Shown one piece after another: positions 1-4,984 of a stretch of DNA of 4,984 nucleotides (position 1 is the stretch's first letter; each line of letters starts with the position of its first letter). The stretch lies in the IMG/VR virus record IMGVR_UViG_2619619126_000013. One strand, given 5' to 3'. The position numbers and the translations under genes are program-made. This stretch comes from a virus (lineage: Duplodnaviria; Heunggongvirae; Uroviricota; Caudoviricetes). Below the pieces are notes generated by a model. That model was not told the DNA's origin, did no database searches, and saw only the letters and a list, made by a program, of their open reading frames with translations.

Positions 1-13
1 TTTCATCCTACCC

Positions 14-38
14 AATAAAACGGGGCGCTCGGCCCCTT
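14..38 (-). terminator. Rho-independent terminator ending the tail-fibre operon
   Basis: Directly after the TAA stop (43-45) the minus strand reads GGGGC-CGAGC-GCCCC (5-bp all-GC stem, + coordinates 22-26 pairing with 32-36) followed by GTTTTATTGGG. The stem is short, hence moderate confidence. Confidence 0.5.
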
Positions 39-42
39 AATA

Positions 43-1083
43 TTATTTAGACGCAAGCGCCGCCTCAATTACAGATAATCTTTGTCTTAATTCTGCGTTT
101 TCTTCTTCCAGTGCTGTTATTCTGTCGTCTGACTCTCTGGCTACCTGAACAAGCAAGCCAGTAACACCAGAATAATCTACTGTGTAATAACGTTCACCTT
201 CTTCACCTTCCGATCCGCTCGCACCGTCCTGATATTTCATTGCGGAACCTACAACTTCTGGGATTGCTTCCAGAGCTTCCTGTGCAATGACACCAGCATA
301 GGGCATACCGTTTTCTTTAAGCGTGTATGTATAGCCGTTCATTTTACGGATGCGGTCGGTTGCATTATCGATCACCTGAATGTTGTCTTTCAGATCCCGG
401 TCGGAATGCTGGTTAAATGCGGTGGCATGACATGCACCATTAACGCTTAACATATAGGTGTTATCGGTATTTTTCTGCGCATAGAACATATAAGCGCCAC
501 CATCAACACCGACTTCATAAACAACAGGACGGCTGGAATTTCCCCATAATAACGTCGACACACCAGAATACGCCGTACCTTGCGTGTTTAGTGTCATGGT
601 CGACCCGTGATTAGCATATTTGATCTGCAATGAGTCTGTATTATCAAACTTAATAAGCGCGTTACTTCCCCGCACACCATACGACATGAGACAGTTCCCC
701 ATCTTAAGGTAACCATCACTGCCTGGAAAAATTAAAGTTCCTCCGTAAAGATCACTAAAGTCCCAAAAGATACCTTTTGTCCCGTTATGTGTGACGATCC
801 TCGTCATTGTATCTTTAGTACCATCAATATTTTTTCTGGTATATATGTCACTATAAGCGTTTTCCGTTTCACCAGTCTTATTTGACAAATGCAGCTTACC
901 GCTGAATATAGTTCCAGTTGTTGGCAATGTTTTTTGATCATAGATTACATTGCAATAACCATTCCATGTTGTTTTATTGTCTACATAAGATTTTGTTGCG
1001 TAGCTTCCTTGATCGTTTTTTAATTTGCTAACGTCGGATTTTAGCGTTTTGATGTCATCAGGAATTACTGTCGATGTAGCCAT
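43..1083 (-). CDS. Tail fibre / tailspike-like protein with C-terminal intramolecular chaperone (peptidase S74-type, autoproteolytic) domain
   Basis: The 346-aa ORF has a strong ribosome-binding site (GAGGAAGAAAA then ATG). Its C-terminal roughly 120 aa carry the hallmark of the self-cleaving chaperone domain found on endosialidase-type tailspikes and the T5 L-shaped fibre: HSDRDLKDNI ... GYTYTLKENG ... GVIAQEALEAIPEVV ... YYTVDYSGVTGLL, then a coiled-coil tail (ITALEEENAELRQRLSVIEAALASK). The N-terminal roughly 225 aa are Gly/Thr/Asn/Tyr-rich, as expected for a beta-rich fibre tip. Sample blocks 841-900 and 961-1020 are 22/60 and 19/60 G+C. Confidence 0.85.
   Translation of the reverse strand: MATSTVIPDDIKTLKSDVSKLKNDQGSYATKSYVDNKTTWNGYCNVIYDQKTLPTTGTIFSGKLHLSNKTGETENAYSDIYTRKNIDGTKDTMTRIVTHNGTKGIFWDFSDLYGGTLIFPGSDGYLKMGNCLMSYGVRGSNALIKFDNTDSLQIKYANHGSTMTLNTQGTAYSGVSTLLWGNSSRPVVYEVGVDGGAYMFYAQKNTDNTYMLSVNGACHATAFNQHSDRDLKDNIQVIDNATDRIRKMNGYTYTLKENGMPYAGVIAQEALEAIPEVVGSAMKYQDGASGSEGEEGERYYTVDYSGVTGLLVQVARESDDRITALEEENAELRQRLSVIEAALASK
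46..405 (-). other. Intramolecular chaperone / autoproteolysis domain of the 346-aa fibre protein (predicted cleavage at Ser227)
   Basis: The Ser codon of the SDRDLKDNI motif maps to + coordinates 403-405 (gga, reverse complement TCC), checked codon by codon down to K232 at 388-390. The domain runs to the C-terminus. Cleavage is inferred from family knowledge, not observed. Confidence 0.7.
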
Positions 1084-1092
1084 TTTTCTTCC

Positions 1093-1374
1093 TCACATCC
1101 AGCCACGAAGTTGATGCTCAACAGCAACCACGTATTCATCGAATAATGACGATATTTGCGAATCATTAATGATGCGCACGTTTACAAAATATCCGTCTTC
1201 CTTAACACATACCGGTTCGCCATCTTCAGTCAGTTCTCCGGTTTCTTTGTACACGTTACCTATCACGTCGATAAGAATATCATCCTGCATCGACTCGTCA
1301 TCATAATAGCCAATACTCTCCATAAAGGCCGAAAAGTCGGCCCTGTCTTCAAATTTGAGTGTTAAATCTTTCAT
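1093..1374 (-). CDS. Hypothetical small, highly acidic protein (93 aa), translationally coupled to stf; candidate fibre assembly or accessory factor, function unknown
   Basis: Its ATG overlaps the stf stop (TAATG at 1372-1376). A GGGGGAG Shine-Dalgarno lies about 8 nt upstream. By hand count it has about 22 Asp+Glu against about 6 Lys+Arg in 93 residues. Its stop TGA (1093-1095) overlaps the GAGGAAG ribosome-binding site of the next gene. I recognise no family; it is too short and too acidic to be a lambda-type Tfa. Confidence 0.7.
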   Translation of the reverse strand: MKDLTLKFEDRADFSAFMESIGYYDDESMQDDILIDVIGNVYKETGELTEDGEPVCVKEDGYFVNVRIINDSQISSLFDEYVVAVEHQLRGWM

Positions 1375-3587
1375 TAGATTGACTCCCCCACCTGAGCATC
1401 AGTCAATGCCTTGTGCCATATTCTGAAATTCCTGACATGACCAAATAAATGACGTAACCCGGCTGTAGTCTGGCCTCCAATACGGATAATTGCGGTGTTC
1501 TGAATACAGGACCATGTGGTTTTTGTTTCGCTGGATATATGCCCGTTACTTACTGAGCACGTAGACTGCTCTGACTTTACACGCATCCCCATAACCATTT
1601 TTTCAAGCGATGCGTTTTCGTTTACCCGTCTGTTAGCTCCTCCAATATCGCAATAAGGAAATCCGTCGTAATCTGTTGAACGACCGAAGCCAAGAATAAT
1701 AGCCGCTCCGGTTTGATGACCGCCGGTATCAAAAACACGTGGCGCTGCATTTGGCGTTTTATACCAGTTCTTATGTACCTCACAAAGAACCGTAAAAGGA
1801 AGATTATAAAGATTATTCTTAATTGGAACTGTAACTATATCGCTTGCGCGGGTCGCCGCCGTCGCTCCTGATATAATAAAAGATGATACACAAGGCCCAT
1901 CTTCTACTTGTGGGGTGGCCAGATAAATATAGTCACCAGATACGGTTGCCCCGCTCTGCTTAGGAGAATACTGTATCTGAGAGCCTATTTTTAACTCCCC
2001 ATCAATTGCCTGAATTGTTGCCTCTGCAAAAATCCATCCGGTAGCTTCGTCCTTTCTGACTCTCGCTGTAATCCTTGAGGCAGCACCGCCTGTCATATTA
2101 ATTTCAAGCGTTTGTGTATCAATATACGCATCACCAAGAAAAGTTGTTGCGCTACCGTCATATTTATCAAACCGGATACGCAACCTTACCTGCAGTTCTG
2201 TTTTAAAACGACATGAGGTTGTCACGTGTTTATTATCGCCTGAGACATCAACTGACTTTGTTGCAGCAATTGATGCCATATTAATGGCTGAGGTTTGCCC
2301 AATCAGAGAATCGTTGCAGACAAACTTTCCATAGGTAAAACCAAAATTATCCGTCCCTGTTTCGGGCACATCCATATTTGACGATCGCCCCCAACTGGCA
2401 GGGCTTTCCGAATTGAGCATGTAGTTTGTTCTTTGCCCCTCAATAAGCAGGCCATCACGTTCAAATCGTGGCTCGTCAATGGCAGCCTCTGTCAGCACAC
2501 CAGATTTGTTAATATAGGTTGCTTTCGATGCACGTTTAAACTTAACAATCTTGTCGCCAGGCATCGTTATTTCATCGTCACCAATAACAATTTTTTTATA
2601 TGACGGCGAAAAGCCCGTAATCATATCCAGCGAATCGTTAAATGGTATCCACACATCAGGCAGCGGCTGTAAGACATATTTATACGGCTCCGCAGCCTGG
2701 CTTGCGTACTCTCTGGCTGCATCTTCGCTTGCTTTAGCTGCCGTCTGGCTTGCTGCCGATGCTTTCGCTGAGTTCGCAGCCGCTGTTTCGCTCACCTTTG
2801 CGTTGGTTTCACTGGTTTTTGCTGCTTTTTGACTGTTAGCTGATGCAGTGGCAGAAGCAGCCGCCGCGCTTGCAGAACTGGCTGCGGCACTCTCGCTTTG
2901 AGCCGCTGCATCCTGACTGCTTTTCGCCGCAGTTTCACTGGCTTTGGCATTCGTTTCGCTGGTCTTCGCTGCCGTCTGGCTGGACTTTGCGTTAGTTTCA
3001 CTCGTCTTCGCAGCTTTCTGGCTGTTAGCCGCAGCAGTTGCTGATCCAGCTGCTGAAGTCGCAGAACCGGCTGCCGCGCTCTCGCTTTGGGCTGCTGCAA
3101 CCTGGCTGTTTTTTGCCGCAGTTTCACTGGCTTTAGCATTCGTTTCGCTGGTTTTCGCCGCGTTCTTCGATGATGCCGCTGCAGTTTCGGATTTCTTTGC
3201 CGCCGCTGCGCTCTGAGAGGCGGCTTCAGCGTTGCGTGCCGCTTCTTCCACCATTTCCTCAAAACGACGCAATGCCTCCGGCATGACATCATCTTCCGTC
3301 ATGGCACCGAGAAAATCATTCAGCGTACCTGGTCTGGAACCTTCATAGACGGTAATGGTCCCGGCATGTGAAGGCGGAAAACCTTCAACCAGCAGGGTGA
3401 CGCTGTACTGGCCATACTCAACATCCATGCTGTAACGCCCGGCTTCATCCGGATTTTCAGAGGCCACCGTGTTCACCAGTACCGTGGTGCTGTTACGCTT
3501 TGCCTTCAGTTGAATAGTGCAGTTCTGTATTGGTTTTCCCGCACCATCTTTCAGCACACCTGAGATTTTTACTGCTGCCATATCCAC
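1374..3587 (-). CDS. stf: Side tail fibre protein (Stf-like): conserved N-terminal tail-attachment domain, Ala/Ser-rich heptad shaft, and a divergent C-terminal receptor-binding region ending in a LamG/ConA-like lectin domain
   Basis: The 737-aa ORF opens with MDMAAVKISGVLKDGAGKPIQNCTIQLKAKRNSTT, which matches the N-terminus of lambda Stf as I recall it (MAVKISGVLKDG...). Residues about 113-299 are an uninterrupted Ala/Ser/Thr heptad array. The C-terminal roughly 140 aa carry LamG-like signatures (PFTVLCEVHKNW ... RVFDTGG ... IIRIGGQ ... LFGHVRNFRIWHKALTDAQV). The track start at 3587 is GTG; the ATG at 3579-3581 with GGAG 6 nt upstream is the more likely true start. The stop TAA overlaps the next ORF's start (TAATG). 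Confidence 0.88.
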   Translation of the reverse strand: MDMAAVKISGVLKDGAGKPIQNCTIQLKAKRNSTTVLVNTVASENPDEAGRYSMDVEYGQYSVTLLVEGFPPSHAGTITVYEGSRPGTLNDFLGAMTEDDVMPEALRRFEEMVEEAARNAEAASQSAAAAKKSETAAASSKNAAKTSETNAKASETAAKNSQVAAAQSESAAAGSATSAAGSATAAANSQKAAKTSETNAKSSQTAAKTSETNAKASETAAKSSQDAAAQSESAAASSASAAAASATASANSQKAAKTSETNAKVSETAAANSAKASAASQTAAKASEDAAREYASQAAEPYKYVLQPLPDVWIPFNDSLDMITGFSPSYKKIVIGDDEITMPGDKIVKFKRASKATYINKSGVLTEAAIDEPRFERDGLLIEGQRTNYMLNSESPASWGRSSNMDVPETGTDNFGFTYGKFVCNDSLIGQTSAINMASIAATKSVDVSGDNKHVTTSCRFKTELQVRLRIRFDKYDGSATTFLGDAYIDTQTLEINMTGGAASRITARVRKDEATGWIFAEATIQAIDGELKIGSQIQYSPKQSGATVSGDYIYLATPQVEDGPCVSSFIISGATAATRASDIVTVPIKNNLYNLPFTVLCEVHKNWYKTPNAAPRVFDTGGHQTGAAIILGFGRSTDYDGFPYCDIGGANRRVNENASLEKMVMGMRVKSEQSTCSVSNGHISSETKTTWSCIQNTAIIRIGGQTTAGLRHLFGHVRNFRIWHKALTDAQVGESI
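2691..3251 (-). repeat. In-frame heptad-encoding repeat array (21-nt period) within stf, containing a 189-bp higher-order tandem duplication
   Basis: The protein reads as about 27 consecutive 7-residue units without stutter (for example TSETNAK / ASETAAK / NSQVAAA / QSESAAA). At DNA level there are near-identical direct copies offset by 189 nt: tttgcgttggtttca at 2797-2811 against tttgcgttagtttca at 2986-3000, and cgcagtttcactggctttggcattcgtttcgctgg at about 2928-2962 against the same motif at about 3117-3151. At protein level NSQKAAKTSETNAK occurs at residues 188-201 and 251-264. Confidence 0.85.
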
Positions 3588-3592
3588 TCCAC

Positions 3593-3619
3593 AAAAAAGC
3601 CCGCCTGAACCGGCGGGCT
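3593..3619 (-). terminator. Rho-independent terminator downstream of lom
   Basis: On the minus strand this reads AGCCCGCC-GGTTCA-GGCGGGCT (8-bp stem, + coordinates 3598-3605 pairing with 3612-3619) followed by TTTTTT (+ 3593-3598). It lies between the lom stop (3646) and the stf start. Confidence 0.7.
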
Positions 3620-3645: not shown

Positions 3646-4245
3646 TCAGAATTTATAACCGACACCCACGATGAAACCGTCAGTGCGCCAGTCACCACTG
3701 CCGGAGCCTTCATAAGCAATATCAATGGCCACGGATTCGGTCGGGTTAAACTGCACGCCAGCTCCCCACGCCAGAGACGTGTTGCTGTGGCGACCGTCAT
3801 CACTTCCGGTCAGCACATCGTGCGTTTTCCCCTTATTGTCAGTTACGCGGAGATAATCCCCGGAAAAAGTCGACACACGGCTGTAAGCCATACCCGCCAT
3901 CGCATACGCGCTGAACCATTCATTCACGCGCACAGACGGCCCCACCATCACGCTGAACCAGCGGTTACGCACGGAATCTTCATGCCAGCGGGTATTGCTG
4001 TAACGGGTAAGCTGGCGATTCTTGTCTCCTGCATAGCTGAATGACGTCACCAGCCCCAGTGTGTCCGTAAACTCATAACGGTATTTCACGTTAATCCCGT
4101 TAAGATCATCGCTGCCGGGAACGTTCGTCGAGGCATGAAGATACCCCGCGCTCAGCGTGGACTGATGTTCAGATGCCCATGCAGGCGCACCGGATACGGA
4201 CAGACAGATGGCTGCGGACAAAATGGCTGCACAAACTTTACGCAT
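3646..4245 (-). CDS. lom: Lom outer membrane protein (Ail/Lom/OmpX/PagC family 8-stranded beta-barrel), a lysogenic-conversion moron
   Basis: The 199-aa product has an N-terminal signal peptide ([24 protein letters not shown], then SEHQ), alternating beta-strand character and a C-terminal aromatic end (GVGYKF) typical of outer-membrane barrels. It is near-identical, by recollection, to lambda Lom. A GAGAGG Shine-Dalgarno lies 6 nt upstream of the ATG, and the gene sits immediately downstream of J. Confidence 0.92.
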
Positions 4246-4266: not shown

Positions 4267-4294
4267 AATAAAAAAGGCGCCATTTCTGGCGCCC
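4267..4294 (-). terminator. Rho-independent terminator downstream of J (tJ-like)
   Basis: On the minus strand this reads GGCGCC-AGAAAT-GGCGCC (6-bp all-GC stem, 6-nt loop, + coordinates 4276-4293) followed immediately by TTTTTTATT (+ 4267-4275). It lies about 20 nt after the J stop and about 20 nt before the lom start. Confidence 0.6.
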
Positions 4295-4312: not shown

Positions 4313-4984
4313 TCAGCTGATACTGATGCCTGCGGTGGCTTTCTTCATCACCACAACCAGCAAATCGCTGATACTTGCTGTGGGATACCAGTCATTTACC
4401 AGCCATGCTGACACCGAAAACTCCAGCGTCATGTGACCGTGACCGGCAGGCATATCAATAACGCCACTGTAAATCAGCGTATTATCCAGCGCGGTACGGT
4501 TATAAATTTCAGCACCGTTTTTCCGCACTATCAGACGGCATGAGGAGTAAATATCAGTATGCTCTCTCTCATGTTTAGCGCCGCTGAATGCCACCGCCGG
4601 AATAACAATCTGCCGGTCAAACGGCTGATCGTCATAAACCCTGACGGTAATGGTCCCTGATGGCCACCGCTCCGGTGCACGGGAGTCCCGGGGGAAAGCT
4701 TTGCCCACTGTTTTAACGAGATCGCCTTCAATCTGGTTGGCGGACAGTTTTCCCAGAACCCGACAGTTTTCGTTAATCGTGACGTTGTTGAGCGTCCCGG
4801 AGTTCGCATTCACGTTACCGCTGATATCGGCATTTTTCGCCGTCAGCCGCCCGTCCGGTGTCAGGGAAAATGCCGGAGGATTACCGCCGCTGGTAATGGT
4901 GGGGGCCGTCAGGCGCTTCAGGAACACGTCGTTCATGAATATCTGGTTGCCCTGCGCCACAAACATCGGCGTTTCATTCCCGTT
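4313..4984 (-). CDS. J: Host specificity / central tail fibre protein J, C-terminal part only (5' end of the gene lies beyond the window)
   Basis: The frame stays open from 4966 to the window edge (codons upstream of the listed Met read N-G-N-E-T-P with no stop), so the gene is truncated by the window. The stop is TGA at 4313-4315. It sits directly upstream of lom with a hairpin terminator between, as in the lambda J-lom arrangement. The sample block 4801-4860 is 35/60 G+C by hand count. The family call rests on synteny and my recollection of gpJ, not on a search. Confidence 0.85.

What the first reader, a model, noticed from the sequence alone, without database searches (positions are those of the whole stretch)
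1093..1374. Unrecognised 93-aa hyper-acidic protein in the position where Tfa is expected
In lambda and most lambdoid prophages stf is followed by tfa (about 190 aa). Here the stf stop overlaps the start of a 93-aa ORF (TAATG), implying coupled, stoichiometrically linked expression. The product has roughly 22 acidic against 6 basic residues with clusters such as YYDDESMQDDILID and TGELTEDGEPV. Two hypotheses fit: (a) a new small chaperone or adaptor for the LamG-tipped fibre or for the downstream protein; (b) a hitch-hiking moron such as a DNA-mimic-like anti-restriction protein (Ocr/ArdA-style acidity). The sequence cannot discriminate; position and coupling favour (a).
Basis: inference. Interest (0 to 1): 0.6.

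Follow-up and report, generated by a model that had tools for sequence, protein, structure and literature searches.

The report
Small partner protein of a phage tail-fibre tip
This 93-residue acidic protein is a real, conserved gene that always sits directly behind one type of sugar-binding phage tail-fibre tip, in very different phages, so it is most likely an undescribed helper or subunit of that tip rather than a DNA-mimic anti-restriction protein.

Summary
A 93-aa ORF (1093-1374, minus strand) starts in the stf stop codon (TAATG). It has 22 acidic and 7 basic residues (pI 4.05).

It belongs to PHROG 1361 (function unknown) and has no Pfam, NCBIfam, PADLOC or PDB sequence match. The family is narrow but under purifying selection (dN/dS 0.2-0.3).

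The key result is comparative. In 143 of 144 loci the family member starts at the stop codon of a fibre gene ending in the same ~424-aa module ("StfC": CBM-like sandwich plus Laminin_G_3-like end); one locus had no recoverable upstream ORF. Loci came from lambdoid, T1-like, T5-like and rV5-like phages. All 11 full-length StfC-like fibres found in other species, down to 25% identity in Leclercia and Aeromonas, are followed by a family member.

The downstream gene varies: a second fibre, a baseplate gene, a membrane protein, or nothing. About 50 phage-21-type prophages keep the ORF without any distal fibre.

In one betaproteobacterial prophage the domain is fused to DUF4376, the conserved domain of proven tail-fibre chaperones.

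Best reading: a new, non-homologous Tfa-like accessory protein for this fibre tip. A DNA-mimic role is unlikely. Chaperone versus retained subunit is unresolved. Interest is moderate.

The parts
1093..1374 (-). orf93: 93-aa acidic protein, PHROG 1361 member. Predicted fold is beta-alpha-alpha-beta-beta-alpha, followed by a conserved C-terminal P-x-R-x-W tail that the model leaves disordered.
1372..1376 (-). TAATG overlap of the stf stop codon and the orf93 start codon (translational coupling). Family members elsewhere use TAATG or ATGA.
1383..1389 (-). Shine-Dalgarno-like GGGGGAG inside the last codons of stf, 8 nt before the orf93 ATG.
   Evidence: sequence read directly
1374..3587 (-). stf side tail fibre gene (737-aa ORF from GTG; the likely true start is the ATG at 3581). 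It has a lambda-type N-terminus (Pfam phage_tail_N, aa 5-134), an Ala/Ser-rich repeat shaft, then the StfC module.
1377..2648 (-). StfC module (Stf aa 314-737), the unit that always precedes the small ORF. It has a conserved first ~80 aa, a variable middle and conserved last strands.
1896..2417 (-). Central beta-sandwich of StfC (Stf aa ~391-564), the only part modelled with confidence. It resembles carbohydrate-binding modules and phage baseplate proteins, and overlaps the NCBIfam GTA_spike_fiber hit (aa 381-581).
1377..1895 (-). C-terminal ~170 aa of StfC. There is a Laminin_G_3-like signal at aa 681-733 (nt 1389-1547). The segment at its start is homologous to the RcGTA head spike fibre (PDB 6tb9). 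It was not modelled as a monomer.
1088..1094 (-). GAGGAAG ribosome-binding site of the 346-aa gene, overlapping the orf93 stop codon TGA (1093-1095).
43..1083 (-). 346-aa distal (second) fibre protein. It has the N-terminal motif MATSTVIPDDIKTLK (nt 1039-1083) shared with distal fibres of T1-like and T5-like phages, and a C-terminal Peptidase_S74 intramolecular chaperone domain (aa 227-278, nt 250-405).
22..36 (-). Intrinsic terminator that ends the stf-orf93-346 transcription unit.

Best explanation
orf93 is a dedicated accessory protein of the StfC-type tail-fibre tip: a functional analogue of Tfa from a new, non-homologous family. It is translated by coupling at the end of stf, so it is made together with the fibre, late in infection. 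It most likely binds the conserved framework of the C-terminal module (the first ~80 residues and the last strands), not the variable receptor-binding surfaces. It would help that CBM-like plus LamG-like tip fold or trimerise, and may stay bound afterwards. Shown here: the gene is real and under purifying selection; the coupling is conserved; the association with the module is strict in both directions; the association is independent of the downstream gene; one natural fusion to DUF4376 exists. Inferred: physical binding, the binding site, the chaperone activity, and whether the protein ends up in the virion.
For: (1) Forward association. In 143 of 144 fetched loci with a family member, the upstream gene ends in StfC (34-100% identity); the remaining locus yielded no upstream ORF. 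The small ORF starts in or next to its stop codon (TAATG or ATGA). These loci cover lambdoid prophages, T1-like, T5-like and rV5-like phages. (2) Reverse association. All 11 full-length StfC-like fibres found in species-representative genomes are followed by a family member: E. ruysiae, Silvania, Leclercia, Buttiauxella, Atlantibacter and Aeromonas, at 25-76% identity (E 1e-10 to 1e-41 with a broadened profile). Phage counts agree roughly: 230 records with the module against 181 with the ORF by tblastn, plus the SelmaRatti-type ORFs that tblastn missed. (3) The downstream gene is not conserved. It can be a 346-aa or ~234-aa distal fibre, a 557-586-aa T5-type fibre, a 97-aa membrane protein, a Mu-like baseplate gene, or nothing. 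About 50 phage-21-type loci lack any distal fibre yet keep the ORF with dN/dS 0.31. (4) One transcription unit, with no internal promoter or terminator. (5) Fusion clue. In locus L158 the gene after a StfC-like fibre encodes the orf93-type domain (aa 1-78, E 2.8e-6) fused to Pfam DUF4376 (E 4.9e-24). Searched alone, that N-domain hits only family members among all phage genomes. DUF4376 is the conserved C-terminal domain of experimentally required tail-fibre chaperones, whose N-terminal domain binds the fibre tip (PMC7289586, PMC10579305, PMC7882524). Other DUF4376 proteins carry other N-domains and sit next to other fibre types. (6) An invariant C-terminal R90/W92 tail is disordered in the monomer model, as expected for a partner-binding peptide. 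(7) AF2 did not fold the conserved N segment or the LamG-like end of StfC as a monomer. This is compatible with a need for partners, but a shallow alignment explains it equally well.
Confidence: 0.6

Rival explanations
1. It is a structural adaptor. The small protein stays on the StfC tip and forms the docking site for the N-terminus of a second (distal) fibre, producing a branched or two-segment fibre.
For: In lambdoid, T1-like and T5-like phages the next gene, 9-10 nt downstream, is a fibre. All these fibres share the N-terminal motif M-x-T-x-T-x-I-P-x-D-I-x-x-L-K despite very different bodies. The window-type ORF is always followed by such a fibre. The BASEL authors model the homologous distal fibre Gp24 as attached to the proximal fibre Gp22 and annotate the small Gp23 as 'tail fiber protein' without comment. 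The ORF is conserved while the receptor-binding parts vary, as expected for a connector.
Against: About 50 phage-21-type prophages have no distal fibre yet keep the ORF, under purifying selection in that group (dN/dS 0.31). rV5-like phages and Buttiauxella, Atlantibacter and Aeromonas prophages also keep the ORF without a motif-bearing distal fibre. The DUF4376 fusion points to a chaperone-type protein. The two roles are not mutually exclusive.
Confidence: 0.2
2. It is a transient cap or mask. The acidic protein binds the glycan-binding tip inside the producing cell and on fresh virions, preventing premature binding to host polysaccharide or debris, and is released later.
For: Chaperones that persist as 'caps' on fibre tips are described for DUF4376-type chaperones of Alteromonas phages (PMC10579305). 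The partner module resembles carbohydrate-binding modules and Laminin_G_3. Most subfamilies are strongly acidic, net -8 to -18, like many bacterial surface glycans.
Against: This is pure analogy, with nothing in the sequence specific to it. The ORF does not track the variable, presumably glycan-binding, parts of the tip. Acidity is weak in the SelmaRatti and Aeromonas subfamilies.
Confidence: 0.1
3. It is a hitch-hiking moron, such as a DNA-mimic anti-restriction protein (Ocr/ArdA style) or another anti-defence factor unrelated to the fibre.
For: Very acidic composition (22 acidic, 7 basic, pI 4.05). Small size. No known family.
Confidence: 0.03

Closest known systems
Tail fibre assembly proteins of the Tfa type (lambda Tfa, Mu U/TfaMu, P2 G; Pfam Caudo_TAP or DUF4376 C-terminal domain)
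   Same: It is encoded immediately downstream of the fibre gene it would serve, in the same late operon. The expected role is to bind the C-terminal part of the fibre. One natural protein (L158) joins the orf93-type domain to DUF4376, exactly where these chaperones have their fibre-binding N-domain.
   Different: There is no sequence similarity to Caudo_TAP or DUF4376 in the window's protein. It is half the size (93 against ~190 aa) and has one domain only. It does not co-vary with the variable tip.
Alteromonas phage V22 gp27 and A5 gp9 tail fibre chaperones (DUF4376; 'transient chaperone caps')
   Same: They are intermolecular chaperones encoded right after the fibre gene, required for a functional receptor-binding protein, and shared with the fibre as a module between unrelated phage families (PMC7289586, PMC10579305). 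The StfC + orf93 pair is likewise shared between sipho- and myoviruses.
   Different: V22 gp27 is matched only through the DUF4376 part of the L158 protein. No homology to orf93 itself was detected, and the fibres are of a different type.
Peptidase_S74 intramolecular chaperone domains (K1F endosialidase, T5 pb1)
   Same: Another way of providing a fibre-tip chaperone. It is present in the same operon, in the 346-aa distal fibre, which shows that this second fibre needs no separate helper.
   Different: It is a covalently attached, self-cleaving domain and is unrelated in sequence to orf93.
Connector proteins of multi-segment or branched fibres (T4 gp35/gp36 hinge; DT57C LtfA-LtfB branching)
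   Same: A small protein encoded between a proximal and a distal fibre gene. Two-gene lateral fibres occur in T5-like phages (PMC4728585, PMC11990801).
   Different: In DT57C both fibres carry S74 domains, and no small gene between ltfA and ltfB is mentioned in the passages retrieved. orf93 is also kept where no distal fibre exists. The T4 comparison is from memory and was not tested.
Ocr / ArdA DNA mimics
   Same: Small size and strongly negative charge.
   Different: No sequence or fold similarity. The gene has late, fibre-coupled expression, and the charge is not conserved across the family.

Membership tests
PHROG 1361 (phage protein family of unknown function) | Full-length match to the family profile | tested here: met
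   E 2.5e-46, residues 1-93 on profile positions 1-92 of 92
Lambda-type Tfa / Caudo_TAP tail fibre assembly protein | Sequence match to the Pfam or NCBIfam family model | tested here: not met
   No Pfam or NCBIfam family at E up to 1 for the window's protein, and none relevant for 14 diverse members
Lambda-type Tfa / Caudo_TAP tail fibre assembly protein | Encoded directly downstream of the fibre gene in the late operon | tested here: met
   TAATG overlap with stf; no promoter or terminator in between
Lambda-type Tfa / Caudo_TAP tail fibre assembly protein | Required for fibre assembly and binds the fibre C-terminus | not testable with these tools
DUF4376-type tail fibre chaperones (Mu U-like, V22 gp27) | C-terminal DUF4376 domain | tested here: not met
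   Absent from the window's protein and from 13 of 14 members. Present only in L158 (E 4.9e-24, aa 90-195)
DUF4376-type tail fibre chaperones (Mu U-like, V22 gp27) | N-terminal domain specific for the adjacent fibre type | tested here: inconclusive
   The orf93-type domain occupies that position in L158, next to a StfC-like fibre. Other DUF4376 proteins have other N-domains next to other fibres. Only one fusion was found.
Ocr / ArdA DNA-mimic anti-restriction proteins | Sequence or fold similarity to Ocr or ArdA | tested here: not met
Ocr / ArdA DNA-mimic anti-restriction proteins | Conserved array of negative charge | tested here: not met
   Net charge ranges from -3 to -18 across members, and the acid clusters lie in non-conserved loops
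Ocr / ArdA DNA-mimic anti-restriction proteins | Early or independent expression | tested here: not met
   Coupled to a late structural gene, with no promoter-like site above chance. Expression timing is inferred from gene organisation.
Phage moron | Own promoter and terminator, and patchy presence independent of neighbouring genes | tested here: not met
   No signals of its own, and strict co-occurrence with StfC. By contrast, lom in the same window is bracketed by terminators.

The most novel reading that the evidence does not exclude
The small protein is a retained virion subunit that caps the conserved framework of the StfC tip and acts as a universal 'socket'. Distal fibres with the shared N-terminal motif (MxTxTxIPxDIxxLK) plug into it. 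That would let siphoviruses and myoviruses of four groups exchange second receptor-binding fibres as cassettes. Where no distal fibre is present, it would remain as a removable acidic cap on the glycan-binding tip.
Probability: 0.15. Interest if true: 0.7.

Novelty: new variant of a known kind. Interest (0 to 1): 0.5.

Why it matters
[quoted passage not shown] Such chimeras work only if the tip's helper protein is moved with it. The StfC tip is very common: the window-type ORF alone is in about 18% of complete E. coli genomes, and the module occurs in T1-, T5- and rV5-like phages used in therapy collections. Yet its obligatory neighbour is annotated 'hypothetical protein' everywhere. Recognising StfC + small ORF as one functional unit would give a practical rule for engineering and annotation. 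It would add a fourth, structurally unrelated solution to fibre-tip maturation, besides Caudo_TAP/DUF4376 Tfa proteins, gp38/gp57A-type chaperones and S74 intramolecular chaperones. It would also offer a small, tractable protein for testing how LamG/CBM-type fibre tips are assembled or joined to second fibres.

Tried and rejected
1. Co-folding StfC with orf93. A block alignment was mis-aligned by MAFFT. No interface prediction could therefore be made.

2. AFDB fold search for orf93: the library was not available.

3. Charge complementarity. The conserved StfC segments are not notably basic (net -2 and +2), so a simple electrostatic pairing argument was dropped.

4. Extension of the pairing to cyanophages and Rhodobacter. 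S-CAM4 and RcapMu have StfC-like regions, but the neighbouring small ORFs are not family members. Alphaproteobacterial loci also lack the ORF.

5. Looking for more orf93-DUF4376 fusions. Salmonella STM4199 and six viral or metagenomic relatives of the L158 protein have unrelated N-domains. Only one fusion was found.

6. Segment-wise correlation between ORF divergence and StfC divergence. Correlation was moderate everywhere (Spearman 0.48-0.69) and highest for the last 10 codons next to the ORF. That fits linkage and does not locate a binding site.

7. Literature. The two BASEL papers, the DT57C genetics and cryo-EM papers, the BF23 paper, the rV5 proteomics paper, two Eligo Stf-engineering papers, and searches for small acidic fibre proteins gave no characterisation of this protein and no virion proteomics for it.

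Full report
**What is in the window.** All genes run on the minus strand. [quoted passage not shown]
- The C-terminal part of J is at 4313-4966.
- lom is at 3646-4245, bracketed by two terminators.
- stf is at 1374-3587.
- The 93-aa ORF is at 1093-1374.
- A 346-aa fibre protein with a Peptidase_S74 intramolecular chaperone domain is at 43-1083.
- An intrinsic terminator is at 36-22.

The same DNA occurs at 100% identity in many E. coli chromosomes, where the ORF is annotated 'hypothetical protein'.

**Check of the observation.** The ORF, its length and the TAATG overlap with the stf stop are as described.
- Composition is 22 acidic and 7 basic residues, pI 4.05.
- A Shine-Dalgarno-like GGGGGAG lies 8 nt upstream, inside stf.
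- The ORF's own stop overlaps the ribosome-binding site of the 346-aa gene, which starts 9 nt later.
- No promoter-like site above chance and no terminator separates the three genes.
- The ORF is a full-length member of PHROG 1361, function unknown (E 2.5e-46).
- It has no match in Pfam, NCBIfam, PADLOC or PDB sequences.
- It is present in 988 of 5426 complete E. coli genomes.
- It evolves under purifying selection, with dN/dS 0.21 among 38 distinct alleles.

It is a real gene.

**Size and spread of the family.** An exhaustive HMMER search of 1.84 billion cluster representatives found only 51 clusters at 50% identity, many of them fragments. A profile search found 342 clusters at 90% identity. 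Among phage genomes, tblastn finds the ORF in 181 records. These are lambdoid phages (including phage 21), T1-like Drexlerviridae and Dhillonvirus, T5-like Demerecviridae, and rV5-like Vequintavirinae. A further T5-like subfamily (SelmaRatti type, 88 aa) was missed by tblastn but is a clear member by profile (E 7e-15).

**The decisive comparative result.** In every annotated example the ORF starts at the stop codon of a fibre gene, whatever follows it. I collected 144 loci containing a family member. In 143 of them the upstream gene ends in the same ~424-aa module (Stf aa 314-737, here called StfC) at 34-100% identity to the window, with start-stop overlaps of TAATG or ATGA. In the remaining locus no upstream ORF was recovered.

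The reverse test used a StfC alignment to scan one genome per bacterial species. All 11 loci with a full-length StfC-like match have a family member starting at -1 or -4 relative to the fibre stop; one starts at +36. These loci come from E. ruysiae, Silvania, Leclercia, Buttiauxella, Atlantibacter, Aeromonas and one mis-binned contig. StfC identity goes down to 25%. With a broadened profile the ORFs score E 1e-10 to 1e-41. Aeromonas phages carry the pair too. Only remote alphaproteobacterial relatives, which share just the PRFE..GLLIEGQRTN region (GTA-type spike fibres), lack the ORF.

**The downstream gene is not part of the conserved unit.** After the small ORF come different genes in different groups:
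- a 346-aa or ~234-aa distal fibre in window-type prophages;
- a 225-aa protein in KarlJaspers;
- 557-586-aa fibres in T5-like phages;
- a 97-aa two-TM membrane protein in phage 21 and about 50 related prophage loci;
- an unrelated 196-aa protein after a 98-nt gap in rV5-like phages;
- other fibre-like proteins in Silvania and Leclercia;
- a Mu-type baseplate gene in Buttiauxella and Atlantibacter;
- nothing obvious in Aeromonas.

The phage-21-type alleles, which have no distal fibre, still show dN/dS 0.31. So the ORF's partner is the upstream fibre module, not the 346-aa protein. Even so, the distal fibres of lambdoid, T1-like and T5-like phages share an N-terminal motif, M-x-T-x-T-x-I-P-x-D-I-x-x-L-K. 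This keeps an additional adaptor role open.

**What the partner module is.**
- NCBIfam places a GTA_spike_fiber domain at Stf aa 381-581.
- An AlphaFold2 model of StfC is confident only for aa ~391-564. This is a beta-sandwich resembling carbohydrate-binding modules (CBM4/6/16) and baseplate proteins of Pseudomonas phages Pa193 and E217.
- The segment that follows is homologous to the solved RcGTA head spike fibre (6tb9, E 3e-10).
- The last ~170 aa give Laminin_G_3 hits in 10 of 14 diverse homologues (best E 1.7e-6). The window's own hit is E 0.0018, below threshold.
- The BASEL authors independently describe a 'galectin-like' C-terminal domain on the homologous proximal fibre Gp22 of phage IrisVonRoten, to which the distal fibre Gp24 attaches. 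They do not discuss the small Gp23 (PMC11990801).

Within StfC, the first ~80 residues and the last ~30 are conserved and the middle is highly variable. Among locus pairs whose small ORFs are at least 94% identical, the variable parts fall to 23-26% identity while the conserved framework stays at 62-90%. If the small protein binds StfC, it binds the framework, not the receptor-binding surface.

**The protein itself.** AlphaFold2 with 27 homologues gives a compact fold (mean pLDDT 82): strand 2-8, helices 11-20 and 27-32, a long hairpin 33-48/54-68, and helix 75-81. The C-terminal tail is low-confidence.
- Family-wide conserved positions are the hydrophobic core, the G-Y-x-V-N-x-R motif on the last strand, and an almost invariant P-x-R-x-W tail at the extreme C-terminus. 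That pattern is typical of a partner-binding peptide (inference).
- Most subfamilies are acidic (net -8 to -18). The SelmaRatti type (-3 to -6) and the Aeromonas type (-5 to -6) are not. The acid clusters lie in non-conserved loops.

**An independent functional clue.** In a Noviherbaspirillum MAG prophage (L158), the gene directly after a StfC-like, LamG-ended fibre encodes a 204-aa protein.
- Its first 78 residues match the family (E 2.8e-6). Searched alone against all phage genomes, this domain hits only family members in T5-like coliphages, including the AZ21 ORF that orf93 also hits.
- Residues 90-195 are Pfam DUF4376 (E 4.9e-24).
- DUF4376 is the conserved C-terminal domain of tail-fibre chaperones shown experimentally to be required for receptor-binding function in Alteromonas phage V22 and in a Campylobacter prophage H-fibre. 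The literature describes these Tfa-like proteins as a variable N-terminal fibre-binding domain plus a conserved C-terminal multimerisation domain (PMC7289586, PMC10579305, PMC7882524).
- Relatives of the L158 protein and Salmonella STM4199 have the same DUF4376 but unrelated N-domains, and they sit next to other fibre types.

This fits orf93 being a stand-alone version of a fibre-binding chaperone domain specific for StfC. It is one fusion only, so the support is moderate.

**Interpretation.** The best-supported reading (confidence about 0.6) is a dedicated accessory protein of the StfC fibre tip. It would be a functional analogue of Tfa from a new family, made by translational coupling with the fibre. 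Whether it acts only during assembly or stays on the fibre cannot be decided here.
- An adaptor role for the distal fibre gets about 0.2. It is favoured by the shared distal-fibre N-terminal motif and the ORF's conservation. It is disfavoured as the sole role by the many loci without a distal fibre.
- A masking 'cap' gets about 0.1.
- The DNA-mimic or moron idea gets about 0.03. It is contradicted by the operon structure, the strict two-way association with a structural module, the lack of any similarity to Ocr or ArdA, and the non-conserved charge.

**Novelty and interest.** No paper in the searchable library characterises this protein. Databases call it hypothetical, or 'tail fiber protein' without evidence. 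A helper gene behind a fibre gene is an expected kind of thing. What is new here:
- the family itself;
- its lack of homology to known fibre chaperones;
- its pairing with a conserved framework rather than the variable tip;
- its spread with the module across sipho- and myoviruses.

I rate it a new variant of a known kind, with moderate interest (0.5). It has practical value for fibre engineering and annotation. The decisive experiments are simple: co-expression, deletion in BASEL phages, virion mass spectrometry and a multimer prediction.

Noticed in passing
L001:11707-12000 (just beyond window position 1); also L005:5292-5585: A conserved 97-aa protein is the constant last gene of this fibre cassette in lambdoid prophages and phage 21; the phage 21 record annotates it with a signal sequence and two transmembrane segments. 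It lies after the terminator that ends the fibre operon, so it looks moron-like. Its function is unknown, and superinfection exclusion or surface modification would be worth testing.
   Followed up: partly
L001:11568-11687: A 3' remnant of a tail fibre assembly (tfa) gene lies downstream of the cassette in the host chromosome. It is probably a scar of the recombination that replaced an ancestral stf tip + tfa with StfC + small ORF + distal fibre.
   Followed up: no
window 43-1083 (N-terminus at 1039-1083); L002, L003, L088: Distal fibre proteins of lambdoid (346 and ~234 aa), T1-like (225 aa, annotated 'putative lateral tail fiber chaperone' in KarlJaspers) and T5-like (574-586 aa) phages share the N-terminal motif M-x-T-x-T-x-I-P-x-D-I-x-x-L-K. 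This is probably a common docking peptide.
   Followed up: partly
window 3598-3619 and 4275-4294: lom is bracketed by two strong intrinsic terminators on its own strand, the classic moron arrangement. This contrasts with the small ORF, which has no signals of its own.
   Followed up: no
window ~2690-3180 (Stf aa ~135-300): The Ala/Ser-rich shaft of Stf consists of KTSETNAKxSETAAK-like repeats whose copy number differs between strains. The window's stf is 168 nt shorter than that of strain 13TMH22, although the two are identical over window 1-1500.
   Followed up: no
window 3579-3587: The mechanical ORF for stf starts at GTG 3587. By comparison with lambda Stf (from memory), the likely true start is the ATG two codons inside, at 3581 (MAAVKISG...).
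   Followed up: no
window 1377-1895 and 2418-2648: AlphaFold2 left the conserved first ~80 residues and the LamG-like last ~170 residues of StfC unfolded (pLDDT below 40) as a monomer, while the central sandwich was confident. The cause could be the shallow alignment or a real need for trimer or partner contacts.
   Followed up: partly
phage collection records MG065692 (Campylobacter phage C13), MG065666 (A12a), MG065653 (C14), OR848352 / OR847733 (Listeria phage LM 4-x): Records labelled as Campylobacter or Listeria phages carry coliphage-like (rV5-like or T5-like) fibre cassettes nearly identical to E. coli phages. They are probably mislabelled or contaminated entries.
   Followed up: no
L150 (JAGZNZ010000051.1, 'Collinsella sp.' MAG): A 2.8-kb contig binned as Collinsella carries an E. 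coli-type StfC fragment, small ORF and 234-aa distal fibre. This is almost certainly binning contamination.
   Followed up: no
L001:7906-11355 and L005:5677-9126: The sitABCD iron/manganese transporter genes lie directly next to the fibre cassette both in the host chromosome and inside the deposited phage 21 genome. This suggests sitABCD is carried as prophage cargo at this end.
   Followed up: no
L158:5006-5452 and L166:4525-4980: A ~150-aa protein with a shared YSHCEL motif follows the DUF4376 chaperone gene in both a betaproteobacterial and a Salmonella prophage. It has no Pfam hit and may be another conserved accessory gene of fibre modules.
   Followed up: no
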